Assembly (NCBI GenBank): GCA_011364975.1
Contig: RDOE01000054.1
Span: 1 to 21,076, forward strand
From: Promethearchaeota archaeon
GTDB lineage: Archaea > Asgardarchaeota > Lokiarchaeia > Sigyniarchaeales > SOKP01
DNA length: 21,076 bases
Direction of reading: 5' to 3'
Shown here: positions 4,381-19,496 of the stretch, piece after piece
How the letters are laid out: each line of letters starts with the position of its first letter
Position numbering within the stretch: the first letter of the stretch is position 1
Notes under the pieces: model-generated
What the model was told of the DNA's origin: nothing
Databases searched by the model: none
Seen by the model: the letters and a program-made list of their open reading frames with translations, nothing else
Translations under genes and position numbers: made by a program

Positions 4381-6780
4381 TTGAAGATTGGATTGTTTGT
4401 CTGCAATTGTGGTAAAAATATAAGCGGAACAATTGATACAGACAAAATTATTGAATATTTTAAGAAAAATTCAGAATTACATGTAATAGGAGATCAATAT
4501 TTATGTTCAGAAACAGGATTAACTAAGATTTCTGACGAGATCAAGGAAAAAAAGATTGACCGCGTTGTGATTGCTGCTTGTTCATTTAAACTACATGGGC
4601 AATTATTTAGAAAAACAATTGAAAAAGCGGGAATAAATAGATTTCTTATTTCTTTTGCAAATATTAGGGAACAAAATTCATGGGTTCATAGTGAGGAACC
4701 AGAAAAAGCGACTTTAAAAGCTATAGATCAGATAAATATGGCAATAGAACAAGTGAAACTATTAGAGCCATTAGATGTGAAGTATGCTAAAATAACACCT
4801 GCCACTCTTATAATAGGGGGAGGGATCGCTGGTATTAAAGCCGCATTAGTAATTGCTGATGCGGGGTATAAAGTCTATTTAGTAGAGAGGGATTTGACAA
4901 TTGGGGGTCACATGGCTCTATTTGATAAAACTTTTCCAACTCTTGATTGTAGTATTTGTATATTGGGCCCACTTATGAGTGAAGTGAAAGATCACCCTAA
5001 TATCGAATTATTTACCAATTCTGAAGTTGAGACGGTTGAGGGATATGTAGGTAATTTTGAAGTTGAAGTCTTAACTAAACCTCGCTTTATTGTGGAAGAG
5101 AATTGTGTTGGATGCGTTGATATATGTCGAGAAGTTTGTCCTATTGACGTAGAAAATACTTTTTACCCAAGGAAAGCTATTGATATACCTTATCCCCAAG
5201 CAATTCCACTTTTTCCTAATATTTTAGAAGAATATTGTATTGGATGTAAAGCATGTGCTCAAGCATGTGATCGAGATGCTATTGATTTTGATCAGGATAT
5301 TAAGAAGACTTATTTAAACGTTGGCAATATAATTGTAGCTACTGGTCTCAAAACGTTTGATCCATCTTTGTTGGGAGAACTAAATTATGAAAAGTATTCC
5401 GATGTAATAACCACTTTACAAATGGAACGTTTATTGAACAATGATGGTCCAACTCATGGAAAAGTGGTAAAACCTTCTAATGGAAGGCTCCCAAAAAAGG
5501 TATCTTTTATTTTGTGTGTTGGTTCAAGAAATAAAGCTATTCATCATGATTATTGTAGCCAAGTATGTTGTAATGCAGCAATTAAGCAAGCGATACTGCT
5601 GAAAAAGGAACATCCTGAAACTAAAGTTAATATTTATTATAACGATATACGAGCAATGGGGAAAAATTGTGAAGAATTCTATAATAGAGCCCAAGAGTCT
5701 TTCGGGATTAGGTTTATTAAGAGTAGTATCTCCGCAATTTTAAAAGATGATTTATCTGAGGAAGCTGAATTACTTATAAGGGGAGAAGATGTTATTGAAG
5801 GTAAGCTTTTTGAAAATAAAACAGATCTAGTAATATTAGCAGTAGGAATTGAACCTGCAGAGGGTACAGACAATCTGAGTCAAATTTTAAACATTTCTCA
5901 AGATTCATATGGATTTTTATTAGAAAAACATTTGAAAATGCGGCCCTCAGAATCTTCTGTGAATGGTATTTTTCTTGCAGGTGTGATACAAGGCCCCAAG
6001 GATATTCCAAATAGTATTGCTCAAGCTGAAAGTGCTGCAGCTAAAGCCATCGCTCAAATTGCTAAAGGAGAGGTTGAATTAGATCCACATTTAGTCCAAT
6101 TTAATGAAAAATTATGTGATTTATGTAGACTCTGTGAAAATATATGCATCTATAATGCCCTAAAAATTGAGGATAATAAACTGAATATTATCCAAGCTAA
6201 CTGCACTGGTTGTGGTGCATGTGCTGCAATGTGTCATAGTGATGCATTATCTATTCCAGGGTTTACCAAAAAACAAATTAGGGCTCAATTAGAAACGATT
6301 ACTAAGAGAAAGAGTGAATCTCCATTAATTGTGGCATTTCTTTGTAATTGGTGTTCATATATGGGAGCTGATCTTGCTGGCACTAGTAAAATTATCTATC
6401 CTACAAATGTAAGAGCGATTCATGTAATGTGCACTGCGATGTTAAACCCTAGTTTAGTATTTGAAGCCTTATTTAATGGAGCTGATGGAGTTTTAATTGC
6501 AGGATGTCATCCCCAAGATTGTCATTATGATACGGGATTTATTCAAGCAACCATTCGCTTTGAAAGTATTAGGGAAATGCTTATTGAAGCAGGTATTAAT
6601 GAAAATCGGGTACGGATAGAAAGCATATCTGCGGGAGAGGGAGAAAAGTATGCTAAAGTGGTAAATGAATTCAAATCTCAGATAGAATCACTTGGAACAA
6701 TTAAACCTGGTGAATATGCTAAGGTTGTAAAACCTGCTGAAAAGGAACCCAAAATAAAAGCTAAAATAGATGAATTATAA
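4381..6780 (+). CDS. hdrA: Heterodisulfide reductase subunit A fused to a C-terminal MvhD ([2Fe-2S] hydrogenase delta) domain
   Basis: N-terminal FVCNCG, AACS and NIREQ; FAD motif IIGGGIAG; DKTFPTLDCSIC; inserted and C-terminal 2x[4Fe-4S] ferredoxin motifs; CVGSR...CSQVCC; GPKDIP. From about 6320 an MvhD domain: AFLCNWCSYMGAD...VMC...GADGVLIAGCHPQDCHY. Confidence 0.95.
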   Translation: MKIGLFVCNCGKNISGTIDTDKIIEYFKKNSELHVIGDQYLCSETGLTKISDEIKEKKIDRVVIAACSFKLHGQLFRKTIEKAGINRFLISFANIREQNSWVHSEEPEKATLKAIDQINMAIEQVKLLEPLDVKYAKITPATLIIGGGIAGIKAALVIADAGYKVYLVERDLTIGGHMALFDKTFPTLDCSICILGPLMSEVKDHPNIELFTNSEVETVEGYVGNFEVEVLTKPRFIVEENCVGCVDICREVCPIDVENTFYPRKAIDIPYPQAIPLFPNILEEYCIGCKACAQACDRDAIDFDQDIKKTYLNVGNIIVATGLKTFDPSLLGELNYEKYSDVITTLQMERLLNNDGPTHGKVVKPSNGRLPKKVSFILCVGSRNKAIHHDYCSQVCCNAAIKQAILLKKEHPETKVNIYYNDIRAMGKNCEEFYNRAQESFGIRFIKSSISAILKDDLSEEAELLIRGEDVIEGKLFENKTDLVILAVGIEPAEGTDNLSQILNISQDSYGFLLEKHLKMRPSESSVNGIFLAGVIQGPKDIPNSIAQAESAAAKAIAQIAKGEVELDPHLVQFNEKLCDLCRLCENICIYNALKIEDNKLNIIQANCTGCGACAAMCHSDALSIPGFTKKQIRAQLETITKRKSESPLIVAFLCNWCSYMGADLAGTSKIIYPTNVRAIHVMCTAMLNPSLVFEALFNGADGVLIAGCHPQDCHYDTGFIQATIRFESIREMLIEAGINENRVRIESISAGEGEKYAKVVNEFKSQIESLGTIKPGEYAKVVKPAEKEPKIKAKIDEL

Positions 6781-6844
6781 AACGATCATATAATTATCAT
6801 TCACAACTATAATTTTTTACCCACATTAAGATACTTTTGTTAGA

Positions 6845-6869
6845 TTTAAAGTTATGATCATAATTTAAA
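6845..6869. promoter_or_regulatory. Palindrome upstream of the DUF711 gene (possible operator)
   Basis: Perfect 12-bp palindrome TTATGATCATAA at 6852-6863, flanked by TTTAAA on both sides (one extra base on the left). Confidence 0.35.
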
Positions 6870-6944
6870 GATTCCATAAATAATATCAATATTAATTCTT
6901 TCTTTTATTCTAATAAAAAGAATATAAAACTTACTAGAGTTACA

Positions 6945-8231
6945 ATGAGGATTAGAGCAATAACAATAGGACAAAAGATTCCATATTTAATCGATAATAA
7001 AAATTTTGAACTCAATCTTGAAAGTAATCTTCAGAAATTTAACCATTTCAACAATGATTTGACTGAACGATTCAAAGACATTAATATTGATGTTCAAACA
7101 AAACGATTGTGTTCCCAACCAATTTTGTCTTATGATCAACAATTATATGAGAAAAATTTAAATGAAACTCTAAATAAAATTCATGAACAACTTGCTATTG
7201 TAGAAAATCTAATTCTTAATCATGGAATTGATTACTTTGCATCTTGTGCTGTTTTAGCAGATGAGCAAATATTAAAGTATGGAGTTTATGAAAAATTATT
7301 ACTAAATGAGGTGCCTCAATTCATTAAAAAAAGAGACGCTTTTTTCACTTCTCTTCATGTAGCTTCAAGTGAAAATGGAATTAATTTATCTGCACTCCGT
7401 TCAGGAGCTAAAATAATAAAAAACTTATCAGAACCAGATCCATTCAAAAATTTAAATTTTTGCGTTAGTTCAAATATTTCTCCCGATACCCCATTTTTCC
7501 CTGCTGCATATCATATGTTGGAAAAACCTGCTTTTTCAATTGCTTTAGAAATGGCAGATGAAGTAATTAAAGTGTTTGAAGCATCAAAGAATGTTCATGA
7601 AGCCCAAATCAAATTAAGAGAGCATTTTGAACAAATATATGAGAATTTAGTCAATATCTGTGAAATCGTCGCAAAAACTCACAATATAGAATTCCACGGT
7701 ATCGATTTCTCTCCAGCACCATATCCCTTGATTGAAAAAAGTATAGGTAAGGCTATCGAAATGTTAAATTATGAATATTTCGGAGCTCATGGTTCATTAC
7801 TGGGAGTTGCTTTAATTAAAAATGCGATCCCTAAGAAGGATAAAATAATAGGGTTTTCTGGTTTTATGCCCTCTGTGTTAGAAGATTTTGTAATCGCAAA
7901 AAATTTAGCTGAAAACAACTTTAACCTAGACACGTTATTACTTTATGCAACTATGTGCGGAACTGGATTAGATTGCGTTCCATTACCAGGAGATATCACT
8001 GAAAAAGAATTATTTTACATATTATTAGATATTTGTACCATCTCATTGAGACTCAACAAACCATTAACAGCCCGATTGATGCCTATTCCGGGAAAAAAAG
8101 CTGGAGACGAAGTTAAATTTAATTTCGAATATTTTGCTCCATCGAAAGTTATGGAAATACGAAGGTTAAAAAATACAAAAACTAATGATATCTTTTCTCA
8201 AAAAATAAAAAATTTTAATTTTTTAAAGTAA
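6945..8231 (+). CDS. DUF711 (UPF0210) family protein
   Basis: MRIRAITIG start; TPFFPAAYH, GIDFSPAP, GFSGFMPSVLED, CGTGLDCVPLPGD and KPLTARLMPIPGK motifs typical of DUF711. Confidence 0.88.
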   Translation: MRIRAITIGQKIPYLIDNKNFELNLESNLQKFNHFNNDLTERFKDINIDVQTKRLCSQPILSYDQQLYEKNLNETLNKIHEQLAIVENLILNHGIDYFASCAVLADEQILKYGVYEKLLLNEVPQFIKKRDAFFTSLHVASSENGINLSALRSGAKIIKNLSEPDPFKNLNFCVSSNISPDTPFFPAAYHMLEKPAFSIALEMADEVIKVFEASKNVHEAQIKLREHFEQIYENLVNICEIVAKTHNIEFHGIDFSPAPYPLIEKSIGKAIEMLNYEYFGAHGSLLGVALIKNAIPKKDKIIGFSGFMPSVLEDFVIAKNLAENNFNLDTLLLYATMCGTGLDCVPLPGDITEKELFYILLDICTISLRLNKPLTARLMPIPGKKAGDEVKFNFEYFAPSKVMEIRRLKNTKTNDIFSQKIKNFNFLK

Positions 8232-8273
8232 TTTAGAATTTCCTTAATTATCCTAACTAAGGGTAAATTTGAT

Positions 8274-8534
8274 CTAGAACTTTTCTATTACCTTACCAGC
8301 AGGTAAGATTTCATAAAAAATCTCATCTTTTTCTTCAAACCTTTTAACGCATTCAGCTTGAAGTAAAAAATCCATATTATATTGAAATACAGAATCTTCA
8401 TTGATGATTTCTTCCTTTTTTAATATTTCAATTAACTTTTCTCTTGAAATTTTTTGCGATTCATTTACATATCTAAGCATTTCCCTTCTAATGGGATGAT
8501 TTACAGCTTTTAGGTGTGTTGCGTGATCAACCAT
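8274..8534 (-). CDS. Small ArsR-like winged-helix protein (paralog 2)
   Basis: LKAVNHPIRREML (ArsR-type first helix), FQYNMDFL recognition helix, wing ending YEILPAGKVIE. Confidence 0.8.
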   Translation of the reverse strand: MVDHATHLKAVNHPIRREMLRYVNESQKISREKLIEILKKEEIINEDSVFQYNMDFLLQAECVKRFEEKDEIFYEILPAGKVIEKF

Positions 8535-8570
8535 CTTATTTTCTCCCCTTTTTCACCCTTTTTTTACTTT

Positions 8571-8912
8571 TCACTTTAAATACTCGATAACTTTACCTGC
8601 TTGAGTGATTCGATAATAACAATTATCATTTTCCTTAATACTTTCAATACATAAAGCTTTCAAAAGAAAGTCAATGTTGTACCTAAATGTCGTAGGATCG
8701 TCCAAAAATCCTTTTCTCTTTAATTCTTCAAATAACTCCGATTCTAAAATTTGAGTAGAATGATGGATAATCTCTAGTATTTCTCTTCTTATTGGATGAT
8801 TAACTGCTTTTAAATAAAGAGAATGATAATATTTTGTTCCTTCAAGCGTTTTATTATAATCCTCAATGGTTTTGAATTCTGAATTGTTATCATTATCAAA
8901 TTCTTCAGGCAT
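8571..8912 (-). CDS. Small ArsR-like winged-helix protein (paralog 1)
   Basis: LKAVNHPIRREIL, FRYNIDFL and YRITQAGKVIE; clear paralog of 8274-8534. Confidence 0.8.
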   Translation of the reverse strand: MPEEFDNDNNSEFKTIEDYNKTLEGTKYYHSLYLKAVNHPIRREILEIIHHSTQILESELFEELKRKGFLDDPTTFRYNIDFLLKALCIESIKENDNCYYRITQAGKVIEYLK

Positions 8913-9015
8913 AAATGGAAAAAATTATCTACTTTGAAAAACTTTTACTCTATAATCCATAATGTTTTAAATTCAAATATAATAAGATTAACTAAATTTG
9001 GGTTATTAGATTATC

Positions 9016-10095
9016 ATGTCAATGCATAAATCTTTAAATATTGATGATATAAAAAAATTACTTGGAGCAGATGCAGATTCTCTTTTAAATCATACTTGTA
9101 CAGGAATTCCTAAAGAAAATATCCATACTCCCGGGCCTGACTTTATTGATCGCGTTTGGGAACATTCCGACAGAAACAATATTGTATTGACTAATATGCA
9201 CCGATTATTTAACCAAAGAGGCCGACTTGCGGGTACTGGTTACCTCTCTATTCTTCCCGTAGATCAGGGGATAGAACACACAGCTGGAGCGAGTTTTGCG
9301 GCTAATCCTAGATATTTTGATCCTGAAAATATTATTAAATTAGCGATAGATGGTGGATGCAATGCTGTAGCATCTACTCTAGGTGTATTAGGTTCCGTGA
9401 GTAGACGATATGCCCGAAAAATACCATTTCTTGTTAAACTCAATCATAATGAATTACTTTCCAAACCCGAAATATCTGATCAAACTATGTTTGCTAGTGT
9501 AGATCAAGCTTGGTCTATGGGTGCAGCAGCTGTTGGGTCAACAATCTACTTCGGGTCACAGGAATCTAGGCGCCAAATCCAAGAAACCTCAGAAGCGTTT
9601 AAATATGCTCACGAACTTGGCTTAGTGTGTGTATTATGGTGTTATTTAAGAAATCAAGAGGAATTTGTAAAAAATGGTAAGGATTATCACACTGCAAACG
9701 ATTTAGAAAGTCAAGCAAATCATTTGGGTGCTACAATAGAAGCTGATATTATTAAACAAAAAATATCTACGACTAGTAGAGGATTCTTAGACCTTAATTT
9801 TGGTAAAACTGATAAACTAGTTTATGAAAAATTAGCAACTGATCATCCCCTGGAATGGAATAGATACCAATTAACTAATTGTTATATGGGTAGAGTTGGT
9901 TTGATCAATTCAGGAGGAGAATCTGGTAAGAATGACCTTGCTGATGCTGTAACAGCTGCTGTTATAAATAAACGGTCTGGTGGCATGGGTCTTATTTTAG
10001 GAAGAAAAGCATTCAAAAAAACCACATCAGAAGGGATTGCGATTCTTAATGCTGTTCAGGATGTGTATCTTAATAAAGATATTACAATTGCGTAA
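9016..10095 (+). CDS. fbaB: Class I fructose-bisphosphate aldolase, bacterial FbaB/DhnA long type
   Basis: [35 protein letters not shown], Schiff-base Lys region [32 protein letters not shown] and C-terminal ITIA, all as in E. coli-type FbaB. Confidence 0.95.
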
Positions 10096-10106
10096 AATTT
10101 AAATCA

Positions 10107-10140
10107 ATTTTCTAATTTTTTTTTATTATTTTTCCTTTTT
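10107..10140 (+). terminator. Archaeal-type oligo-T terminator after fbaB
   Basis: Several T runs within 45 nt downstream of the fbaB stop. Confidence 0.5.
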
Positions 10141-10251
10141 GTGTTATTAAGATAATTAAAAATTGGGCTACAAAAATTAATTATATTACAGAACTTATAC
10201 TTATCATAAGATAAATCAAGATTAAATACAAAATTAAATAAAGAGAAAAAA

Positions 10252-10947
10252 ATGCCAAACTATTATCCAGATCCTAATAAAAATCCCTATCGAGTGTCTA
10301 GAGAACCTGTACGCCAACCAGTTGCTGAAAAAGTATCATCTACTAATGTAGACTTTGATACTCAGCGAATTTGCCCTTCATGTGGGAAACTTATTAAGAT
10401 CAGTCATAACTTTTGTAAATTTTGTGGAGTAGATCTTAGTTCGATTCCCGCTTTAGGAGAATCTGATAAAACCTTAAAAGCATTATCTGTAGCTGCATTA
10501 ACTGATTTAGATTACGAGGTTAGGAAGGATGCCATAGCCTCATTAGAAGAACTAGGGGGAAAAGAGATTTTAGGAGTATTTACTTATGTATTGTTAAATG
10601 ATCTTCATGAGCTTGTAAGAAAAGAAGCCGCTGATAAGTTAGGGAATATTCATAATCCCATATCGCTAGATATATTAACTAAAGCTTTAAAAGATAAAAG
10701 CCCATTAGTAAGAAAAGCAGCAATCGAAGCTTTAAAGAAAATCAAAAAAATGAATAAACCCCCACAACCAGAACCATTAGCAAAAAAAGAAGAACAACCG
10801 AGAAAGCAAGAAATTAAACAAGAGCAACAAATTGAAGCTGAATCAAAGAATGAAGTTAATGATGATAATGAAGATGATGATAATGAGGATACTGCTCCAC
10901 CCCTTAAAGAAATTGAACCTAGTGATGACGATATGTATAGGTTCTGA
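10252..10947 (+). CDS. Zinc-ribbon + HEAT (PBS-lyase-like) repeat protein with acidic disordered tail
   Basis: CPSCG-x9-CKFCG; three HEAT units (D.DYEVRKDAIASL, DLHELVRKEAADKL, DKSPLVRKAAIEAL); D/E-rich C-terminus. Confidence 0.85.
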   Translation: MPNYYPDPNKNPYRVSREPVRQPVAEKVSSTNVDFDTQRICPSCGKLIKISHNFCKFCGVDLSSIPALGESDKTLKALSVAALTDLDYEVRKDAIASLEELGGKEILGVFTYVLLNDLHELVRKEAADKLGNIHNPISLDILTKALKDKSPLVRKAAIEALKKIKKMNKPPQPEPLAKKEEQPRKQEIKQEQQIEAESKNEVNDDNEDDDNEDTAPPLKEIEPSDDDMYRF

Positions 10948-11005
10948 AATTATTTAATTTCATTTCAATTTTTTAATCAATTAACTATAAATTAATAAAA
11001 AAAGG

Positions 11006-11944
11006 TTAATCTAGATCACTCGGAATTTTAGGTAATTCACGTTTGGAAGCTGGTTTTTTCCCCTCACTATCATTTTTCTCTGATGGAAGCCTAGATTTCA
11101 GTACTTCTACAGCTTCCACAATGCCTTTCTTTTCATCGAAATAGACTCTAAATTTTTTGTTATCTAATTCCATTATTCCCTTTGGGAGGCTTTTAACCTC
11201 TTCCCAAACAGTGTCTACAATGCTTTCTCCAAAAATTTCAGTGACTTTAGAAACTGCACCATATAGGCTATATCCCAATATTAAGTTTTGCCTTTCATAC
11301 CCTTTAGGAACTTCCATAATGAGTATTTTTTCCTTAATTTTTTCTTTCTCTTCTCGTGAAAGATCAGGTGAGCTTTTTACTGACGTAGATGAACTCAATC
11401 TTTTTTGTTTTTGCGCGCTAGATTTTTGCGTTTTCACGGGATGACTAACAGCAAATGAGGAGATTATAATATCGTTATTATTATCTTCAAAACCAGGAGA
11501 ATAGTAATCTTCTTCTATTTGACTTAAATCTTCTTCTTTAGAAAGTCGTTCTACTTCTTTCATTCTTTCGCGTTCAATATTACGTATATAACGCATATCT
11601 GGAAGTCGCTCTTCTACTTCCATAGATTCAAGCTTAAACGCATTTAAGAATTCTTGAAGCTCATCTCCTTGATCAATTGAAACTATTTTACATCTATGAT
11701 ATCTTGAATCTTGGGTAAGCTCTTTTTGTAATTCTTGAGCAACTCGAGAACTTATGAATCTTTTCCTCACGGGAGATTTAGAGCCCTTCCAAATAAATAT
11801 CCTTCGTAAATCTTCTCTTATAATTATTAAAACTTGCTCTGGATTTAGATGATTTTGAAGTTCTTCTTGCTTAATAGTTAATTGTGTCTTTTCACCTGTA
11901 TTCTCAAGGTCATAAACTAAAAAATCTTCATACACTTTAGACAT
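11006..11944 (-). CDS. One-domain gelsolin-like protein with an extra C-terminal domain (Asgard 1DGelX-like)
   Basis: Residues about 5-105 follow the gelsolin repeat pattern LNPEQVLII...IFIWKGSKSP.RKRFISSRVAQEL...IVSIDQGDELQEFLNAF. An S/K-rich linker and a compact alpha/beta domain follow. Confidence 0.82.
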   Translation of the reverse strand: MSKVYEDFLVYDLENTGEKTQLTIKQEELQNHLNPEQVLIIIREDLRRIFIWKGSKSPVRKRFISSRVAQELQKELTQDSRYHRCKIVSIDQGDELQEFLNAFKLESMEVEERLPDMRYIRNIERERMKEVERLSKEEDLSQIEEDYYSPGFEDNNNDIIISSFAVSHPVKTQKSSAQKQKRLSSSTSVKSSPDLSREEKEKIKEKILIMEVPKGYERQNLILGYSLYGAVSKVTEIFGESIVDTVWEEVKSLPKGIMELDNKKFRVYFDEKKGIVEAVEVLKSRLPSEKNDSEGKKPASKRELPKIPSDLD

Positions 11945-12009
11945 AGATTCTCCTCAACTTCAAAATCTATCTTTTTATTTTTTTTTAAAATGATTTTACC
12001 AAAATAGTC

Positions 12010-12040
12010 TTTTTTCGCAAATTTAAAATTTCCGAAAAAA
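12010..12040. promoter_or_regulatory. 31-bp near-perfect palindrome upstream of the gelsolin gene
   Basis: TTTTTTCGCAAATTT-A-AAATTTCCGAAAAAA: 14 of 15 positions complementary, centred on 12025. Confidence 0.5.
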
Positions 12041-12128
12041 ATAATTGTACTAACCACAAGTCCAGTAAAGCGATTAAAACAATAAAAAAAATTTAAAAAA
12101 TTTAAGAATTGCATTTTGATTTTAAATA

Positions 12129-12845
12129 TTATCTAGTGTCGTGTAACACATTATCTACGGAAAGCACAAAACCTAACAAAATTCTGCGATCAGTTTTATT
12201 ATCTAATATCTTTAATACATACGTATCTTTAAAATCAAAAATTCCACCTAAGAAAATATCCCTCCATTTATCCGCTTTCTCAATCTCTGCTACAACTTCC
12301 CCCGTCACAACGTCATAAATCTTGAAAGAAAATCCCATGAACTTTCCTTGAGCTCTAAACCATTGAGTTCCATCTGGAGCTTCAAGAAAAAAGACTGGTC
12401 GAAATAATGAAAGTATTTTTTTCTTAATCCGTGCTATTAACTCCCCATCAGGGGTCTTTAAATCTTGAGCCGCTCTTGCTGTGATAAGTTTTGCATGGAT
12501 GGTTGCAACAACAGTACCATCAACTTCTTTTAATTCCACTCTCTTTCTTATACTCAATATTATCCGATGCATCTTTCCTATAATCTGATTATTTTCATCA
12601 AGAATGTCGCCAGAACCCCAATCCCAATACTTCTCTTTCAAAATATAATAATTCCGGTTTATATCAAACAATCCCAGGCCTTTAGTAGTAGGGATTGTTG
12701 CTTGAGAACTTGGTGGAGTGGCTGATAAAAGACTTACTTTTTCAGTCTGTTCCAGAATCTCACTTCCACAGTTTTGACAGAACTTCTGAATTGAATCCTT
12801 AAGTTCAGCCCCACAATTTGAACAAAAATTAGGTATCGTATTCAC
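12129..12845 (-). CDS. Zinc-ribbon + LURP-one-related (Tubby-C/scramblase fold) protein A
   Basis: N-terminal FCSNCG-x9-CQNCG; repeated beta-hairpin units (DENNQIIG, DGTVVATI, DGELIARIKKK); VAEIEK...DTYVLKI and a hydrophobic C-terminal helix ILLGFVLSVD. GTG start. Confidence 0.85.
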   Translation of the reverse strand: MNTIPNFCSNCGAELKDSIQKFCQNCGSEILEQTEKVSLLSATPPSSQATIPTTKGLGLFDINRNYYILKEKYWDWGSGDILDENNQIIGKMHRIILSIRKRVELKEVDGTVVATIHAKLITARAAQDLKTPDGELIARIKKKILSLFRPVFFLEAPDGTQWFRAQGKFMGFSFKIYDVVTGEVVAEIEKADKWRDIFLGGIFDFKDTYVLKILDNKTDRRILLGFVLSVDNVLHDTR

Positions 12846-12955
12846 CTACAGTTATGATTTAACTTTAATCAAAACAAGTAAACATCTGCTTATAAATTTA
12901 ATTCATAGATAAGATACTAAAAAAAGAATATAAAAAAATGATTTAGGAGATTTTA

Positions 12956-13489
12956 TTATCTATTCTCTTCTTTTTCATGATGGAGCATTAAAACTATGCC
13001 TAAAACTAACATTGCTGAATCATCATCTAAGTCAGGATTCATTTTCACGCCATAAGTACCTTTTAAAAGGCTTTTAAACAACTTCTTATGAATCTCGGCA
13101 ACTTCCTTACCATCTTTTAAAATCTTAAATTTTAAGGTGAAAATATTCCCCTTCATCGTAAACACTTGGTTTTCATTAGGATCTTCAAACCAATAACTAG
13201 GTTTAATGGCAACTAGTTTTCTTTTGAGCTGTCCAAGATATTGATTTTCATCCTGCTCGCCACCTTTGTAAAATTTGTAGGTAGATCGTAGTGAAATAAC
13301 CTTTTCATGAACGGTTAATACAGGATTTTCATTAAGATCTCTAATTCGGTAAGTATTACCAATTTTTATTAGTTTTCCCCTGAAGCTTCCAATGACTTCT
13401 TTATCTAAGTTCATAATTGTACCTTTATCTGTTAAAGAAATCATTTTTTCTTGAAGAATAAATTCTCTAGTTTTTTCTAATACTGACAT
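12956..13489 (-). CDS. LURP-one-related (Tubby-C/scramblase fold) protein B, no zinc ribbon
   Basis: LQEKMISLTDK start, EKVISLRSTY, MKGNIF..KFKI..DGKEVAEIHKK, TYGV and C-terminal helix MLVLGIVLML; YxjI/LOR-like pattern. Confidence 0.85.
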   Translation of the reverse strand: MSVLEKTREFILQEKMISLTDKGTIMNLDKEVIGSFRGKLIKIGNTYRIRDLNENPVLTVHEKVISLRSTYKFYKGGEQDENQYLGQLKRKLVAIKPSYWFEDPNENQVFTMKGNIFTLKFKILKDGKEVAEIHKKLFKSLLKGTYGVKMNPDLDDDSAMLVLGIVLMLHHEKEENR

Positions 13490-13705
13490 CTTCTACACTT
13501 CCTTATGATTTTTAAACCGTTTCTGGTATAAAATTATTAAATATTTTATTTAACAATTTTAAACTAATAATCAACTTCAGCTATAAAAATGTTTTTACCC
13601 TTTTATGATTCAATTTTATTCTAGATTTTTATAATGAGGACAGAAAGATTAAATAATTTAGAATGTGATTACTAAATTAAACTAAATAAAGCATGGTAAT
13701 TATAA

Positions 13706-14203
13706 ATGACAATTTTATTTACAGCTGAGGGTCATTTTCGAGAAGGATCTATAGGGAAAAAGTGGCAATTTGAAATGGAGTTAGGTAAAATTATACTAAC
13801 CGATACAGAATTAAATTTAATGAAGAAATCTAATATTTCTCTTACAGATTTAGGTACTTCTGTTGATAATTATAAAGAAGGATTTAAAATCCCCTTAGAA
13901 AATATAAAAAAAGCCTATAGTATACAAAATAGAAAAATTTATGTAGTAGTTGTGGAAACGAGAGATAATCATCTTTTCACAATCACTATGGCGGGGCATA
14001 GAAATCCCGCAAGAGTTGAAAGTATTAAGTTAAGTGAATTAATTAATACTGCAATTTTAGCTAATTTAGATGTGTTAAAAGAAACGTCTTCTCCTCAAAC
14101 TCATTTTCAAAAAAGAGATAATATCCTTGTTTGTGAATATTGTGGAGAGAAAAATAATCCTGGAGCTAGCTTTTGTAAGAATTGTGGTAAAAAAATAAAT
14201 TGA
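13706..14203 (+). CDS. PH-fold (GRAM/bPH-like) domain + C-terminal zinc ribbon protein
   Basis: GKIILTDTELNL and FKIPLENIKKA match the GxLxLT..xl.f and ipl..I patterns of GRAM/PH-like domains; then a C-terminal helix and CEYCGEKNNPGASFCKNCG. Confidence 0.65.
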   Translation: MTILFTAEGHFREGSIGKKWQFEMELGKIILTDTELNLMKKSNISLTDLGTSVDNYKEGFKIPLENIKKAYSIQNRKIYVVVVETRDNHLFTITMAGHRNPARVESIKLSELINTAILANLDVLKETSSPQTHFQKRDNILVCEYCGEKNNPGASFCKNCGKKIN

Positions 14204-14221
14204 TCATATTATCTTAATCAA

Positions 14222-15019
14222 TCAACGTCGACGATGTGGAGCCCCAAAAGGTCCAGGAATTCTACCCCTACGATATGGCCTTGGAAAAATTGGACCAGGA
14301 CCTACCATAGGACCCATTCCCCCTGTATCGTGGAGTACATTATCTATACTTAAAACAAAACCCACTAAAATACGCCTATCTGTCTCGTTATCCAAAATTT
14401 TTAAAGCATATGTATCAGCAAAGTCAAATAAACCTCTTAAAAAGACATCTCGCCATCTATCAGCTTTTTCAATCTCAGCTACAAGCTTACGAGTTCCTAC
14501 TTCGTAAACCTTAAACGACCATCCCATGAAGTTTCCTTCCGCCTCATACCATCGATTTCCAAAAGGATCTTCAAGATAAAAAACATGTCGAAAAAAAGTT
14601 AGTATTTTCCTTTTTATGCGAGCAATCATATTTCCTTGAGGATCTTTAAGATCCTGGGCACCGCGCGCTGAGACGATTTTACTATGTATTGTTGCAAGAA
14701 TCGTCCCATCTAATTCCTGGAGCTCTACTCGACGACGAATTGAAAAAATTATTCTATTCATTCTACCAATAAGTTGACCATTCTCATCCATAATATCTCC
14801 AAAACCTAGATCGAACCACCGTTCCTTAATTAAGTAGTAATTGCGATTAATATCAAATAAACCACCTTTAAGTTGACTCGATGAAGATGGTTGAGCGACT
14901 TTTTGTGGTTCATGGGTTAAACTTGAGGTTTTTTGAGCATTGTATAACTCTGTACCACATTCTTCACAATATCGTTGTTCTGGGTTAACTTTTGCTCCAC
15001 AATTTGGACAATCATTCAT
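14222..15019 (-). CDS. Zinc-ribbon + LURP-one-related (Tubby-C/scramblase fold) protein C with Pro/Gly/Arg tail
   Basis: Close paralog of 12129-12845 from GLFDINRNYY to DNVLHDT. Start placed at ATG 15019 (MNDCPNCG) to match paralog A, rather than TTG 15070. Confidence 0.85.
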   Translation of the reverse strand: MNDCPNCGAKVNPEQRYCEECGTELYNAQKTSSLTHEPQKVAQPSSSSQLKGGLFDINRNYYLIKERWFDLGFGDIMDENGQLIGRMNRIIFSIRRRVELQELDGTILATIHSKIVSARGAQDLKDPQGNMIARIKRKILTFFRHVFYLEDPFGNRWYEAEGNFMGWSFKVYEVGTRKLVAEIEKADRWRDVFLRGLFDFADTYALKILDNETDRRILVGFVLSIDNVLHDTGGMGPMVGPGPIFPRPYRRGRIPGPFGAPHRRR

Positions 15020-15198
15020 AATTATAAACTTATTAAACAATAAAATTAGTATTATTCTGTTAAACCACAATAGTCTATATTAACTAATAAATTTACGTTC
15101 TTGTGGTCTGTAATAGTTAGAGTTTAAAGTAATGTTTTAATTAGAGAATGATTTTAACTATTATATATTAGTAAAAAAAGGACTTCTAAACTTGTTTA

Positions 15199-15966
15199 AT
15201 GTCATCAATTCCTAAATTATTAAAACTAAAAGATTATATAACTTTAATCGGAACTACTATAGGTCTAATCGCTTTAATTGCAGGTAGCTTAGGAACTAGA
15301 GGTTCTATATCATTTGGTTTTTTTCTTACATCAATTTGTTTAGGAACTGACTTGATTGATGGATATATCGCACGAAAAACGGGCACTGTAAATGAGATGG
15401 GAAAAGAACTCGATTCATTAAGTGATTCAATAACATTTGGGATTGTTCCAGCAGTATTAACTTACTTAGCTTTTCGGACAGGTCAAATTTTTGATTTTAT
15501 TTTAATTATTGGGTGTATAATTTTTGCTTTAGGAGCGTTGTTAAGGTTAGCGAGATTTAATTTGTCTATTGATACAGGTTATGTCGGAGTTCCAACTCCG
15601 TTAAGTGCTCTATTAGTGATAATGTATTATTTTTCTAATTATTATTATGTTATTGCAGTAGGAGATATCTATGCTCCATTTTTAGATCTCGCTTACTATT
15701 TCATCCCATTTGGATTGATATTATTAGGATGGATGAATATTACTACTTTCATTAAATTTAGTGAAAAAAGCAAAATGACTTATATTATAGTAATAATTAT
15801 TGCACCTTTAAGCCCAATATTCGGCATTATTGGGGTTTCTAATCCATCGCCTATTCTTTCTTTAATAATTTCTTTATTTTTTATACTTACATTCTTTGGT
15901 TTTATCCTTTGGACATTTATCAGATCCTTGTTAAAGTATATTACGGAAAAAGAGAGCAAAAACTAA
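15199..15966 (+). CDS. pssA: CDP-alcohol phosphatidyltransferase, PssA subclass II / archaetidylserine synthase-like
   Basis: Signature DLIDGYIARKTGTVNEMGKELDSLSD, plus FGIVPA, LRLARFN and GVPTP typical of serine-specific members; multiple TM helices. Confidence 0.82.
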   Translation: MSSIPKLLKLKDYITLIGTTIGLIALIAGSLGTRGSISFGFFLTSICLGTDLIDGYIARKTGTVNEMGKELDSLSDSITFGIVPAVLTYLAFRTGQIFDFILIIGCIIFALGALLRLARFNLSIDTGYVGVPTPLSALLVIMYYFSNYYYVIAVGDIYAPFLDLAYYFIPFGLILLGWMNITTFIKFSEKSKMTYIIVIIIAPLSPIFGIIGVSNPSPILSLIISLFFILTFFGFILWTFIRSLLKYITEKESKN

Positions 15967-18098: not shown

Positions 18099-19496
18099 AT
18101 GAGCCATTTTGAAGATGTGTTTTTTTATTTAGATCTTGCTAAAGATATTTTAAAAAAAAAGGAGTTAAGTAAAGCTATAGAATATTATATCTCTGAAAAA
18201 AATAAGAGTAATATTCAAGGACATTATGGATTTTTACTTTTTCAACAACAAGGGAATCCTATCTTCATCACTGACAAAAAAGACTCGAATATTATCATTA
18301 ACGCAATAGAGGAAAATTGGAAAACTCGTCCGAAGAAGGAATCATTTTTTGAAAATGGATTATTCTATATTTTTTCTTATATTGCTGAAACAGTAAGAAA
18401 AAAGTCACAATTTAATAGAATTATTATTATTACAGACACTCCTAGTGATTTATCTGAAGATTATACGGAAGCGTTATTTGGTTTAGTCTCAAAAATCAAA
18501 ACATTTCCAACTTTTATTGATATTGTAAGAATATCCGAGGGACAACGTTTTTTTACTGATGATGTTAAACTAAATATTTTAGCAAATGACACAAAAGGAG
18601 GAATTTTTTATGTTTCAGATAAAAAAGAATTCTTACCCCTTATAAAAAAATTAGTCAAATCAAAACAATTGATTAGTACCTTCGAGGAGAAACCTGATAA
18701 GATTAAGATAAATAAAGAGGATTACTTCTTTTATTCTCACCTTGCTAAAAAACTAAAACCAATTGGATCAGACGAAGTCGGATTAAGATGTTCTTTATGT
18801 AAAGAAGAGATTTGCCCTGTGTGTATGGAAATAGGAGACAAACCGGTCATTTGCGAAGAATGTAAAACTCCCTTTCATAATTGTTGTATTACAAATTATA
18901 CAATACAATATAATATTGGAATTCCCCACATATTTCGTTGTCCTAAATGTGATATTTTACTACAAATTGAACAAGATGAAATCGTTCAACCATTTAATAG
19001 TGAAGAGCAATCAGTTTATGATTATCTTGAGAAAGAAAGAACCCCAAAATCAATCCCAGTAAGAGATACAGAAAAAATAGAAATAAAGCAGCAAATTAGT
19101 AATGAAACTAGTTTAGATGTTAAAACACCATCTAGAACCACAGAAAATGGCACAAATCTCCAAAAGCCTAACACCATACGAATTGGTGGTTTCTTTGGGA
19201 AAGTTTATACAGTCAGAAAAGACGGAAATAGGTTAATATATGAAAAAACAGATAAATCCTTCACATTTAATGATAATTTAGAAGAAAAGAATGATTTACC
19301 TAAAAATGGCCAACGAATTGTTCAAGAAAATCAAAATGTACCTCAGATATGGAAACCATCGCAGAATAAAAATGAACAAGTGGAAGATAGAGATAAATAC
19401 CTTTTTATTATATGCCCAGAATGTGGTAAACAGGTTAAAAATCAAATTCAAGGTATCAATAAATGTCCAAAATGTGGGTTTAAATTTTCGAATTAA
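18099..19496 (+). CDS. vWA-like domain + Cys/His-rich RING/PHD-like finger + C-terminal zinc ribbon (paralog 1)
   Basis: vWA strands FFYLD, YGFLLF, RIIIITD, FIDIVRI and LANDTKGGIFYV; finger CSLC..CPVC..CEEC..HNCC..H..CPKC; C-terminal CPEC...CPKCG. Confidence 0.75.
   Translation: MSHFEDVFFYLDLAKDILKKKELSKAIEYYISEKNKSNIQGHYGFLLFQQQGNPIFITDKKDSNIIINAIEENWKTRPKKESFFENGLFYIFSYIAETVRKKSQFNRIIIITDTPSDLSEDYTEALFGLVSKIKTFPTFIDIVRISEGQRFFTDDVKLNILANDTKGGIFYVSDKKEFLPLIKKLVKSKQLISTFEEKPDKIKINKEDYFFYSHLAKKLKPIGSDEVGLRCSLCKEEICPVCMEIGDKPVICEECKTPFHNCCITNYTIQYNIGIPHIFRCPKCDILLQIEQDEIVQPFNSEEQSVYDYLEKERTPKSIPVRDTEKIEIKQQISNETSLDVKTPSRTTENGTNLQKPNTIRIGGFFGKVYTVRKDGNRLIYEKTDKSFTFNDNLEEKNDLPKNGQRIVQENQNVPQIWKPSQNKNEQVEDRDKYLFIICPECGKQVKNQIQGINKCPKCGFKFSN

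What the first reader, a model, noticed from the sequence alone, without database searches (positions are those of the whole stretch)
10252..15966. Candidate Asgard membrane-lipid/actin locus: gelsolin + three Tubby/scramblase-fold paralogs + GRAM/PH-like protein + serine phospholipid synthase
Seen: seven contiguous genes encoding a zinc-ribbon-HEAT protein, a one-domain gelsolin, LURP-one-related proteins A, B and C, a PH/GRAM-like zinc-ribbon protein and a PssA-type synthase. LOR-B, LOR-A and gelsolin are co-oriented; LOR-C is divergent from pssA. Established: the LURP-one/LOR fold is shared with the Tubby C-terminal domain (phosphoinositide binding) and PLSCR scramblases; GRAM/PH domains often bind anionic lipids; eukaryotic gelsolins are regulated by Ca2+ and anionic lipids; PssA makes (archaetidyl/phosphatidyl)serine. 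Inference: the locus could make, sense or redistribute an anionic serine lipid and couple it to actin remodelling, a possible forerunner of PS-based membrane-cytoskeleton signalling. I know of no description of this gene neighbourhood, but co-location could be chance.
Basis: partly seen in the sequence, partly recalled or inferred. Interest (0 to 1): 0.8.

Follow-up and report, generated by a model that had tools for sequence, protein, structure and literature searches.

The report
Gelsolin gene linked to serine-lipid synthase
In a group of Lokiarchaeia, an actin-cutting gelsolin gene and a Tubby-fold gene stay beside the cell's only serine-lipid synthase gene while the surrounding genes are reshuffled, which hints at, but does not prove, an archaeal link between an acidic membrane lipid and the actin skeleton.

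Summary
All seven genes are present at the stated coordinates and orientations. Three labels need correcting. The gelsolin is a gelsolin domain plus a confident second domain "X" plus an invariant C-terminal RxLPKIPS tail, a 1DGelX-like build. The "PH/GRAM" call has only weak fold-level support. The synthase is the genome's only PssA-type enzyme but scores below the curated cut-offs.

GelX and pssA lie within about 3.5 kb in 54 of 61 genomes of the window's family that have a pssA match, across nine genera. The same holds in 4 of 11 genomes of a sister family and 1 of 1 of a third. At least six local architectures occur, and the other window genes are scattered in the sister family. A zinc-ribbon LOR gene usually sits between the two.

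LOR-B and the PH-like gene form a separate two-gene cassette, which in six relatives lies elsewhere. ZnR-HEAT is conserved only within the family.

No canonical PS decarboxylase was found in 25 genomes of the genus, so a serine lipid would be an end product.

Lipid binding, protein contacts and co-expression remain untested. A complex prediction gave no answer. The functional coupling is plausible (about 0.4) and, as far as I searched, undescribed.

The parts
10252..10947 (+). Zinc-ribbon + HEAT-repeat protein (231 aa) with an acidic C-terminal tail. It is convergent with GelX.
   Evidence: HEAT_2 E 1.9e-25 and Zn_ribbon_3 E 1.2e-5. It stays beside GelX in genera g1, g12, g16 and g19 of family f1. 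It has no match in the loci fetched from f2 and f3.
11006..11944 (-). GelX (312 aa): gelsolin domain, disordered linker, domain X and a conserved tail.
   Evidence: Pfam Gelsolin E 3.9e-5. AF2 model, mean pLDDT 73. Best structural match is Thorarchaeota ProGel 7c2f: Z 14.4, rmsd 1.5 A over 88 residues, and Foldseek E 3.7e-6.
11570..11944 (-). Gelsolin/cofilin-fold domain of GelX (aa 1-125).
   Evidence: pLDDT is about 90 over aa 10-105. Invariant residues include R47, R48, W52, K53, G54, D91, G93, D94 and E95 in 28 orthologues.
11084..11362 (-). Domain X of GelX (aa 195-287): one helix followed by five beta-strands. Its fold has not been identified.
   Evidence: pLDDT is about 90. R218, N220, G239 and W247 are invariant. 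Only 76 representatives among 1.84 billion proteins match at E<=1e-3. The structure searches covered model residues 2-111 only.
11018..11041 (-). Conserved C-terminal tail motif R-E-L-P-K-I-P-S (aa 302-309).
   Evidence: P308 is invariant; R302, L304 and I307 are conserved in at least 90% of the 28 orthologues spanning three families. The motif is absent from the two GelX paralogues of the same genome.
12129..12845 (-). LOR-A: N-terminal zinc ribbon plus a LURP-one-related (Tubby/scramblase-fold) domain.
   Evidence: LOR 35.9 bits and Zn_Ribbon_1 28.6 bits. In the tree it groups with the LOR of genus g12, support 96/93.
12956..13489 (-). LOR-B: LOR domain only. One half of the LOR-B/PH-like cassette.
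   Evidence: LOR 53.1 bits, Scramblase 25.6 bits (cut-off 25.4), Tubby_C_like 23.2 bits (cut-off 24.4). The PH-like gene is its divergent neighbour in 12 of 12 loci with an orthologue of >=74% identity.
13706..14203 (+). 165-aa protein: a possible PH-superfold domain plus a C-terminal zinc ribbon. The other half of the cassette.
   Evidence: Only zinc-ribbon Pfam hits. 46 homologues, all >=48% identical and unnamed or 'hypothetical'. The model is poor, pLDDT 50.5. Nearly all of its 50 best structural matches are PH, PTB, FERM-C or GRAM-type domains, Z 5.3-7.2.
14222..15070 (-). LOR-C: zinc ribbon plus LOR domain plus a Gly/Pro/Arg-rich tail specific to the genus. The true start is probably at 15019.
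   Evidence: LOR 39.7 bits. Orthologues lie between GelX and pssA in most f1 genera and in g8. Alignment A3. The g1 clade has 100/98 support.
15071..15198 (.). Divergent intergenic region between LOR-C and pssA, AT-rich, with TATA-like boxes.
   Evidence: GC 0.21. A [TC]TTTAA[TC] box lies within 80 nt upstream of pssA in 20 of 30 loci. No background control was run.
15199..15966 (+). PssA-type CDP-alcohol phosphatidyltransferase (255 aa), the probable archaetidylserine synthase.
   Evidence: PF01066 E 1.8e-14. pssA TIGR00473 96.3 bits against a cut-off of 107, and arch_ser_synth 74.5 against 240. The motif D51xxD54G55xxA58R59x8G68xxxD72xxxD76 is conserved in 28 orthologues. The orthologue is adjacent to psd in L015 and L065.

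Best explanation
The window holds an expanded copy of a gene neighbourhood conserved in one order of Lokiarchaeia.

The core is GelX, usually preceded on the same strand by a zinc-ribbon LOR (Tubby/scramblase-fold) gene, and in some genera by a Macro-domain gene. These are transcribed away from pssA, the cell's only PssA-type head-group synthase.

My reading of how it works, step by step:
1. PssA makes archaetidylserine. In this genus that lipid is an end product, because no canonical decarboxylase is found.
2. The ZnR-LOR proteins, and in this species also LOR-B and its PH-like partner, are peripheral proteins that dock on that anionic membrane.
3. GelX severs or caps lokiactin there. It would be positioned by its domain X or its RxLPKIPS tail, either directly or through LOR.
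4. The genes are co-regulated from back-to-back promoters.

What is shown: the gene identities at family or fold level, the conservation of the neighbourhood through several rearrangements, the lack of a Psd match in the genus, and the separate history of the LOR-B/PH-like cassette.

What is inferred: serine specificity, membrane and lipid binding of LOR, PH-like and GelX, actin severing by this GelX, co-regulation, and any physical contact.
For: Linkage within the family. GelX and pssA lie on one contig within about 3.5 kb in 54 of 61 f1 genomes with a pssA match: g1 19/23, g12 20/21, g13 3/4, g14 4/4, g15 2/2, g16 3/4, g17, g18 and g19 1/1 each. This is my hand tally. In 5 of the 7 misses, the pssA or LOR gene lies within about 400 bases of a contig start.

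Linkage outside the family. It holds in 4 of 11 f2 genomes (g2 3/3, g8 1/1) and in 1 of 1 f3 genome.

Local architectures differ while proximity is kept:
- LOR between the two genes.
- LOR flipped onto the pssA strand (g14).
- LOR absent, so GelX and pssA are directly divergent (g13, G166 of g15, g17).
- A Macro gene added (g8, g2).
- LOR replaced by an unrelated membrane protein (g2).
- The LOR-B/PH-like cassette inserted (part of g1).
- PhoU between the two, on the same strand (f3).

Control. None of the other window proteins matches the f2 and f3 loci. In two closed f2 genomes the DUF711 and HdrA homologues lie more than 80 kb from each other and more than 0.1 Mb from GelX-pssA.

LOR and GelX. 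LOR-Macro-GelX stays together in g9 even where pssA is 20 kb away.

The pssA orthologue is directly followed by psd in L015 (f3) and L065 (f5). Psd was found in 0 of 25 g1 genomes.

GelX has the gelsolin fold, and the genome encodes three actin-family genes.

Literature, passages read.
- Thor 1DGelX severs actin independently of Ca2+. As a GFP fusion in human cells it concentrates at nuclear-membrane and ER-like regions (PMC7444086).
- Cultured Asgard archaea express archaetidylserine synthase, and a Loki START protein binds PS liposomes (PMC12139934).
Against: - Within family f1, the genes on the other side of pssA (a 654-aa coiled-coil protein and two paralogous 465/473-aa proteins) are conserved just as well. 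Much of the f1 signal is therefore ordinary block synteny.
- The linkage is missing in g5, g10 and g11, and is loosened in g9.
- In f4 the GelX-like gene sits beside gyrB/gyrA, and no pssA match was found.
- ZnR-LOR genes in other Asgard classes have unrelated neighbours.
- Each gene in the window has its own AT-rich 110-216 bp upstream region, so no tight operon is evident.
- GelX relatives often carry HeH/SAP motifs: 10 of the 33 domain-X proteins I scanned, out of 76 found. That points to DNA rather than lipid.
- No function is known for the LOR family (PMC2639001).
- PssA scores below every curated serine-synthase cut-off.
Confidence: 0.4

Rival explanations
1. Inherited gene order without shared function. 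GelX, LOR and pssA are neighbours because they were neighbours in the ancestor of the order, in a slowly rearranging region. At most they share promoter space.
For: Across f1 the whole block from GelX to the 465/473-aa genes is syntenic. The linkage is lost in g5, g10, g11 and f4, and stretched to 20 kb in the closed g9 genome. All linked lineages belong to one order, so the cases are not independent origins.
Against: In f2 and f3 every other window gene has left, while GelX-pssA stays within 1.3-1.6 kb. Genes between the pair have been flipped, lost, replaced and inserted without separating it. In a different order, pssA-psd lies 1.4 kb from an actin gene; this is a single case.
Confidence: 0.3
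2. The LOR-(Macro)-GelX trio works on something other than the serine lipid. One possibility is a membrane-tethered or nucleoid-linked regulatory or ADP-ribose-signalling module, in the sense proposed for Tubby and PLSCR proteins. Under this reading pssA is only a divergent neighbour.
For: HeH/SAP/Ish1 motifs occur in 10 of the 33 domain-X proteins scanned and in the paralogue on contig C189. A SAP-like insert occurs in GelX orthologues of several genera. A Macro-domain gene lies between LOR and GelX in g2, g8 and g9. Zinc ribbons are present on four locus proteins. The scramblase/Tubby superfamily was proposed to be membrane-tethered transcription factors (PMC2639001). LOR-Macro-GelX persists in g9 without pssA nearby.
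Against: The window's GelX has no HeH/SAP motif; it has the RxLPKIPS tail instead. GelX-pssA adjacency persists where LOR and Macro are absent (g13, g17). The window contains no Macro gene, and the genome's two Macro genes lie on other contigs.
Confidence: 0.2
3. PssA supplies lipid for covalent anchoring of a protein, and the invariant C-terminal tail of GelX is the processing or attachment site. This would be by analogy with the haloarchaeal archaeosortase system that needs PssA and PssD homologues. That analogy is recalled, not read here.
For: The NCBIfam model 'protein sorting system archaetidylserine synthase' gives a weak hit, 39.6 bits. The tail motif is strictly conserved at the extreme C-terminus and is specific to the pssA-linked orthogroup.
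Against: 39.6 bits is far below that model's cut-off of 200. No archaeosortase, no PGF-CTERM-like hydrophobic segment and no signal peptide is seen on GelX (sequence). Psd is not found in the genus. GelX of g5 keeps the tail although it is unlinked from pssA.
Confidence: 0.03

Closest known systems
Thorarchaeota 1DGelX (Akil et al. 2020, PMC7444086; passages read)
   Same: A single gelsolin domain followed by an extra C-terminal region. It is an Asgard protein. The gelsolin domain of the window protein superposes on Thor ProGel, Z 14.4.
   Different: In the paper, domain X of Thor 1DGelX was predicted to be a coiled coil and was not solved. Here domain X is modelled with confidence as one helix plus five strands. 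Homology between the two X regions was not tested, because no Thor sequence was at hand. The RxLPKIPS tail and the pssA linkage are not mentioned in the passages I read.
Eukaryotic gelsolin/villin family regulated by Ca2+ and phosphoinositides
   Same: The gelsolin fold. The idea that an anionic lipid controls an actin-severing protein.
   Different: One repeat instead of three to six. No lipid-binding site was identified. The lipid in question is a serine lipid, suggested only by gene order. Ca2+ sites were not examined.
LURP-one-related/DUF567, PLSCR scramblase and Tubby C-terminal superfamily (PMC2639001; passages read)
   Same: All three LOR genes pass the Pfam LOR cut-off. LOR-B also touches the Scramblase model. 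A conserved hydrophobic C-terminal segment is present, as expected for the buried helix.
   Different: N-terminal zinc ribbons replace the eukaryotic N-terminal regions. No palmitoylation motif was examined. No lipid binding or scrambling is known for LOR proteins. The barrel fold itself was not modelled here.
pssA-psd lipid operons of archaea and bacteria
   Same: The same enzyme family with an intact catalytic motif. Orthologues in L015 and L065 are followed by psd.
   Different: In the window's genus no psd match was found (0 of 25 genomes). pssA is paired with cytoskeletal and Tubby-fold genes instead.
Archaeal 'bacterial PH (bPH_3) + zinc ribbon' proteins
   Same: Same length and same C-terminal zinc ribbon. 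They are the nearest named clusters in the ESM Atlas, scores 0.88-0.90. The structural matches are PH-superfold.
   Different: No Pfam bPH_3 or GRAM hit in 0 of 32 members. hhalign probability against four Asgard bPH_3 proteins is 0.2%.

Membership tests
Gelsolin repeat (PF00626) | Sequence match above the Pfam gathering score | tested here: met
   23.9 bits against a cut-off of 21, E 3.9e-5, aa 30-100. The whole-genome scan gives 26.5 bits.
Gelsolin repeat (PF00626) | Gelsolin/cofilin fold | tested here: met
   AF2 pLDDT is about 90 over aa 10-105. 7c2f ProGel gives Z 14.4, rmsd 1.5 A over 88 aa. The next matches are gelsolin, fragmin and villin domains, Z 11-12.6.
Gelsolin repeat (PF00626) | Binds, severs or caps actin; Ca2+ sites | not testable with these tools
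   Three actin-family genes are present in the genome.
Asgard 1DGelX architecture | One gelsolin domain followed by a non-gelsolin C-terminal domain | tested here: met
   The model has a gelsolin domain, a disordered stretch at 139-192 and a second domain at 195-287. The Pfam Gelsolin scan gives a single stretch, aa 30-100, in this protein. The fold searches covered only model residues 2-111, so domain X was not compared with gelsolin folds.
Asgard 1DGelX architecture | Domain X homologous to that of Thor 1DGelX | not tested
   No Thor 1DGelX sequence was available to me. The paper predicts a coiled coil, whereas this model is alpha+beta.
LURP-one-related / Tubby-like superfamily | Pfam LOR match above cut-off | tested here: met
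   35.9, 53.1 and 39.7 bits against a cut-off of 24.5 for LOR-A, LOR-B and LOR-C. These are the only three matches in the genome.
LURP-one-related / Tubby-like superfamily | 12-stranded barrel around a central C-terminal helix | not tested
The conserved hydrophobic C-terminal segment (…DRRILxGFVLSIDNVLHD) in A3 is compatible with it.
LURP-one-related / Tubby-like superfamily | Phosphoinositide or other lipid binding, or scrambling | not testable with these tools
   Not a shown property of LOR proteins. The family is described as uncharacterised.
PH / GRAM / bPH domains | Sequence match to a PH, GRAM or bPH model | tested here: not met
   0 of 32 family members match at E<=10. hhalign against Asgard bPH_3 gives probability 0.2%. 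A PDB profile search returns zinc-ribbon hits only.
PH / GRAM / bPH domains | PH superfold (seven-stranded sandwich capped by a C-terminal helix) | tested here: inconclusive
   The model is poor: pLDDT 50.5, and residues 1-62 are below 50. Nearly all of the 50 best chains are PH, PTB, FERM-C, TFIIH-p62 or MTMR6 PH-GRAM domains, Z 5.3-7.2, 64-91 residues aligned. The Atlas result is a lead only.
PssA-type (archaetidyl/phosphatidyl)serine synthase | CDP-alcohol phosphatidyltransferase domain with the motif Dx2DGx2ARx8Gx3Dx3D | tested here: met
   PF01066 54.8 bits. D51, D54, G55, A58, R59, G68, D72 and D76 are invariant or nearly so in 28 orthologues.
PssA-type (archaetidyl/phosphatidyl)serine synthase | Score above a curated equivalog cut-off | tested here: not met
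   TIGR00473 96.3 against 107. NF038087 74.5 against 240. TIGR04217 62.5 against 200. It is still the best-matching class, and the only paralogue of five with that profile.
PssA-type (archaetidyl/phosphatidyl)serine synthase | Genomic pairing with PS decarboxylase | tested here: met
   Met for the orthologues in L015 (f3) and L065 (f5), where psd follows pssA directly. In the window's genome and 24 congeners no Psd match was found.
PssA-type (archaetidyl/phosphatidyl)serine synthase | Serine as the accepted alcohol | not testable with these tools
   Needs an enzyme assay or lipidomics.
HEAT-repeat proteins | Pfam HEAT_2/HEAT match above cut-off | tested here: met
   HEAT_2 89.4 bits against 27.7, and HEAT 40.4 against 23.5.

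The most novel reading that the evidence does not exclude
Lokiarchaeia of this order possess a dedicated membrane-cytoskeleton module. A serine head-group lipid made by PssA is read by Tubby-fold (ZnR-LOR) and PH-like adaptors. These position or regulate a GelX gelsolin on lokiactin through domain X or the RxLPKIPS tail. If so, anionic-lipid control of actin severing predates eukaryotes.
Probability: 0.25. Interest if true: 0.85.

Novelty: new variant of a known kind. Interest (0 to 1): 0.6.

Why it matters
Asgard archaea have eukaryote-like actin regulators, but how those regulators are tied to membranes is unknown.

This work gives a gene-order link, retained through repeated local rearrangement, between a gelsolin, a Tubby/scramblase-fold protein and the only serine-lipid synthase. 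That yields a small, concrete set of proteins to test:
- liposome binding;
- severing assays with and without serine lipid;
- localisation in the cultured strains.

It bears on whether lipid-controlled actin remodelling existed before eukaryogenesis.

It also defines three uncharacterised elements worth structural work: domain X, the RxLPKIPS tail and the LOR-B/PH-like cassette.

Full-text searches found no description of this neighbourhood: Asgard + gelsolin + phosphatidylserine, Asgard/Tubby/scramblase, Asgard + LURP and Lokiarchaeota + archaetidylserine. Supplements of those papers were not read.

Tried and rejected
- **Complex prediction.** GelX full length with LOR-C residues 60-282, both as alignments. 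Score 0.00 twice; verdict 'no answer'; controls were not run. I draw no conclusion from it.
- **RNA evidence.** No RNA holder was listed for window 10252-15966.
- **Domain X fold.**
  - The Atlas search with residues 190-290 gave only unnamed Promethearchaeota clusters at 0.79.
- **PH-like protein.** There was no Pfam PH, GRAM or bPH hit and no bPH_3 match in the window's own genome. The PDB profile search gave zinc ribbons only. hhalign against four Asgard bPH_3 proteins gave probability 0.2%.
- **Is the 220-aa membrane protein that replaces LOR in genus g2 a divergent LOR?** hhalign probability 0.1%, so rejected.
- **Is the 654-aa neighbour of pssA related to the TrmB-type gene near pssA in L065?** BLASTP E 0.61, so rejected.
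- **Protein-lipidation reading** (weak anchor_synt_A hit). Kept only as a 3% rival.
- **ZnR-LOR neighbourhoods in other Asgard classes** (L037-L040). No gelsolin or lipid gene is nearby.
- **Conserved TATA-like boxes upstream of pssA**. These are descriptive only, because no background frequency was computed.

Full report
**What is in the window.**
The 21-kb window is contig C155 of a 3.74-Mb, 200-contig genome. GC is about 30%. Close homologues of its proteins are labelled Lokiarchaeota or Promethearchaeota in public records. The genome has three actin-family genes and five gelsolin-domain matches in four frames on four contigs.

- 10252-10947(+): ZnR-HEAT.
- 11006-11944(-): gelsolin.
- 12129-12845(-): ZnR-LOR 'A'.
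- 12956-13489(-): LOR 'B'.
- 13706-14203(+): a 165-aa protein with only a C-terminal zinc ribbon.
- 14222-15070(-): ZnR-LOR 'C'.
- 15199-15966(+): a CDP-alcohol phosphatidyltransferase nearest to pssA.

**Is the cluster more than chance within this genome?**
The three LOR genes are the only LOR matches in the genome.

The synthase is the only one of five CDP-alcohol transferases with a serine-synthase profile. Three of the other four look like archaetidylinositol-phosphate synthases; the fourth gives only weak matches.

Four of the seven proteins share the zinc-ribbon motif CxxCG-x4-20-[FYW]CxxCG. Only 31 of about 3342 crude ORF-genes have it. The only two of 2258 seven-gene windows with four or more such genes are this locus. 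Two of the four are paralogues, so the enrichment is less independent than the count suggests.

**The gelsolin is a GelX.**
An AlphaFold model built from 28 orthologues has mean pLDDT 73. It shows:
- a gelsolin domain, aa 8-104;
- a helix and a disordered linker;
- a second confident domain 'X', aa 195-287, made of one helix and five strands;
- a flexible tail.

The gelsolin domain matches Thor ProGel best: Z 14.4, rmsd 1.5 A over 88 residues, and Foldseek E 3.7e-6.

The tail ends in R-x-L-P-K-I-P-S. This motif is conserved in all 28 orthologues across three families and is absent from the two GelX paralogues of the same genome.

Domain X is rare. An exhaustive HMMER search of 1.84 billion representatives found 76 proteins at E<=1e-3, mostly with X at the same position in proteins of 310-440 aa. 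I scanned 33 of these. Ten carry a C-terminal HeH/SAP/Ish1 motif.

The architecture corresponds to the '1DGelX' class of Akil et al. In the passages I read, Thor 1DGelX severs actin without Ca2+ and, as a GFP fusion in human cells, concentrates at nuclear-membrane and ER-like regions (PMC7444086). Homology of the two X regions was not tested.

**The synthase.**
The catalytic motif Dx2DGx2ARx8Gx3Dx3D is intact and conserved. Scores fall below the curated cut-offs: pssA 96.3 against 107, and archaetidylserine synthase 74.5 against 240.

In each related genome, exactly one protein matches it at E<=1e-10. In two other lineages that orthologue is directly followed by a PS-decarboxylase gene: L015 in family f3 and L065 in family f5. 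This is the best available support for serine specificity.

No Psd match was found in the window's genome (99% complete) or in 24 congeners. In contrast, 6 of 11 f2 genomes have one. If the product is a serine lipid, it is not decarboxylated by a canonical enzyme in this genus.

**The PH-like protein.**
It belongs to a narrow family of 46 proteins, all >=48% identical and unnamed or 'hypothetical'.

None of 32 members hits a PH, bPH or GRAM model. Profile comparison with four Asgard bPH_3 proteins is negative.

The model is poor, pLDDT 50.5. Even so, nearly all of its 50 best structural matches are PH-superfold domains (PH, PTB, FERM-C, TFIIH p62, MTMR6 PH-GRAM), at Z 5.3-7.2 over 64-91 residues. 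The nearest named Atlas clusters are archaeal 'bPH_3 + zinc ribbon' proteins of the same length, scores 0.88-0.90.

I rate a PH-like fold as likely but unproven. Nothing supports lipid binding.

**Synteny inside the genus is uninformative.**
In relatives of the same genus the whole window is collinear, from HdrA to the 473-aa gene.

**Synteny across the family.**
I compared three searches of the same 301-genome draw of the phylum by hand.

GelX orthologues (E<=1e-20) occur in 67 of 68 genomes of family f1 and 7 of 7 of f2, and nowhere else. pssA orthologues occur in 61 of 68 f1 genomes and 7 of 7 f2 genomes, with a few elsewhere.

GelX and pssA lie on one contig within about 3.5 kb in 54 of the 61 f1 genomes that have a pssA match:

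| Genus | Linked / with pssA match |
|---|---|
| g1 | 19/23 |
| g12 | 20/21 |
| g13 | 3/4 |
| g14 | 4/4 |
| g15 | 2/2 |
| g16 | 3/4 |
| g17 | 1/1 |
| g18 | 1/1 |
| g19 | 1/1 |

In five of the seven misses the pssA or LOR gene lies within about 400 bases of a contig start, so those cases are uninformative rather than negative.

A caveat applies. Across f1 the genes beyond pssA (654-aa, 465-aa and 473-aa proteins) are retained as well. Part of the f1 signal is therefore ordinary block synteny.

**Synteny in the sister families is the informative part.**
In f2, GelX-pssA is kept in 4 of 11 genomes, namely g2 3/3 and g8 1/1. In f3 it is kept in 1 of 1. No other window protein matches those loci.

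In the two closed f2 genomes the DUF711 and HdrA homologues, which are adjacent in the window, lie more than 80 kb apart and more than 0.1 Mb from GelX-pssA.

The linkage is absent in g5, g10 and g11. In g9, LOR-Macro-GelX stays together but pssA is 20 kb away in the closed genome. In f4 the GelX-like gene lies beside gyrB/gyrA, and no pssA match was found.

**Local architectures.**
The pair survives at least six different arrangements:
- LOR between the two and co-directional with GelX (g1, g12, g16, g18, g19, g8).
- LOR flipped onto the pssA strand, GelX<>LOR>pssA (g14).
- No LOR, GelX and pssA directly divergent (g13, G166, g17).
- A Macro-domain gene added between LOR and GelX (g8, g9) or beside a replacement gene (g2).
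- LOR replaced by an unrelated 220-aa membrane protein (g2; hhalign probability 0.1%).
- The LOR-B/PH-like cassette inserted (part of g1).

Repeated change between the two genes without their separation is the main argument that proximity is maintained rather than merely inherited.

**History of the LOR genes.**
ZnR-LOR is widespread in the phylum: 153 of 301 genomes match. Its tree follows taxonomy. In other classes its neighbours are unrelated.

LOR-A groups with the LOR of genus g12 (support 96/93). LOR-C belongs to a g1-specific clade (100/98) that has gained a Gly/Pro/Arg-rich tail. The two are therefore not a recent tandem duplicate.

LOR-B and the PH-like gene are divergent neighbours in 12 of 12 loci with a LOR-B orthologue of >=74% identity. 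Six of these sit inside the GelX-pssA locus. The other six sit at another locus, 1.4-2.5 kb from a Ras-like GTPase gene. They form a cassette of their own that entered the locus in part of the genus.

**Interpretation.**
The evidence supports a conserved neighbourhood whose hub is GelX, with pssA and ZnR-LOR as recurrent partners.

The most economical functional reading is co-regulated production of an anionic serine lipid together with proteins that act at that membrane, including an actin-severing or capping gelsolin.

Two pieces of literature context fit this. Cultured Asgard archaea express archaetidylserine synthase, and a Loki START protein binds PS liposomes (PMC12139934, passages). Thor 1DGelX shows a membrane-like localisation in human cells.

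Several observations count against it.
- The linkage is lost in several genera.
- GelX relatives carry HeH/SAP motifs.
- No function is known for LOR proteins.
- Each gene in the window has its own AT-rich upstream region.
- There is no direct evidence for lipid binding, co-expression or contact.

A complex prediction gave no answer, and no RNA run holding the locus was listed.

I put the functional-coupling reading at 0.4, neutral retention at 0.3, a non-lipid role for the LOR-Macro-GelX trio at 0.2, and a protein-lipidation role at 0.03.

**Novelty.**
All the parts belong to known families or folds. The conserved gelsolin-Tubby-fold-PssA neighbourhood, domain X with its tail motif, and the LOR-B/PH-like cassette were not found in print by four full-text searches. 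I read only listings and selected passages, and no supplements. I class it as a new variant of a known kind, of moderate to high interest because it is directly testable.

Noticed in passing
L011:5805-6371(-), L013:7216-7794(-), L014:7949-8521(-), L016:7397-7972(+), L018:2134-2709(+): In family f2 (genera g2, g8, g9) a Macro-domain gene (PF01661, E 1e-34 to 1e-39) lies immediately upstream of GelX, between it and the ZnR-LOR or its replacement. The window's genome has two Macro genes, both on other contigs (C119, C150).
   Followed up: partly
L065 (G264, another order of the class): 6198-10179: pssA and psd form an operon. They are followed by a RimK-like ATP-grasp gene and then an actin gene (PF00022, E 2.6e-134) 1.4 kb from psd. 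This is a second, independent-looking pairing of pssA with the actin system, but it is a single case.
   Followed up: partly
alignment A2; G000 C189:4620-5585(-): GelX orthologues of g13, g15 and f3 carry two copies of domain X. Those of g12, g16, g17 and g19 carry a SAP/HeH-like insert (…MTVKDLKxYAxxxxIxLP…) before the tail. The paralogue on C189 ends in such a motif. Of 33 domain-X proteins scanned, 10 hit HeH/SAP/Ish1.
   Followed up: partly
window 14222-14320 (C-terminus of LOR-C): LOR-C of genus g1 has a Gly/Pro/Arg-rich tail (…GMGPMVGPGPIFPRPYRRGRIPGPFGAPHRRR). LOR-A and the LOR genes of other genera lack it. It might be a basic membrane-binding or proline-recognition segment.
   Followed up: no
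L041-L045, L048: Where the LOR-B/PH-like cassette lies outside the GelX-pssA locus (6 of 6 such loci), a Ras-like small GTPase gene sits 1.4-2.5 kb away. That gene is 30-34% identical to the window's gene at 496-1041.
   Followed up: no
window 18099-19496(+) and 19637-21058(+): Two tandem paralogues of 465 and 473 aa, about 33% identical in cross-matches. They have weak VWA and C-terminal zinc-ribbon signals. They are conserved next to the 654-aa coiled-coil gene and pssA throughout family f1.
   Followed up: no
window 8274-8534(-) and 8571-8912(-): Two small tandem paralogues of 86 and 113 aa, about 46% identical in cross-matches. There is a weak DUF7347 hit on the 113-aa gene only. Some relatives have one copy.
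   Followed up: no
window 496-1041(-), 1098-3326(-), 4381-6780(+): A Ras-family small GTPase (E 1e-38), an N6-adenine DNA methylase of MmeI type, and an HdrA-like flavoprotein fused to an MvhD/FlpD domain.
   Followed up: no
G025, G028, G032, G038: Several HdrA homologues in f2 genomes contain one to three in-frame TGA codons. These may be selenocysteine codons.
   Followed up: no
L013:9467-11194(-), L014:10152-11879(-), L017:4706-6424(+), L011:8281-9771(-): In f2 a PIN/P-loop ATPase gene (496-575 aa) is always convergent with pssA. It occupies the position that the 654-aa coiled-coil gene holds in f1.
   Followed up: no
L011:3471-4214(-): A YegS_C (lipid-kinase-like beta-sandwich) gene lies directly downstream of GelX in genus g8.
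   Followed up: no
window 15020-15070: The TTG-started N-terminus of the LOR-C ORF (17 hydrophobic residues) is probably not translated. Orthologues start just before the first CxxC.
   Followed up: partly
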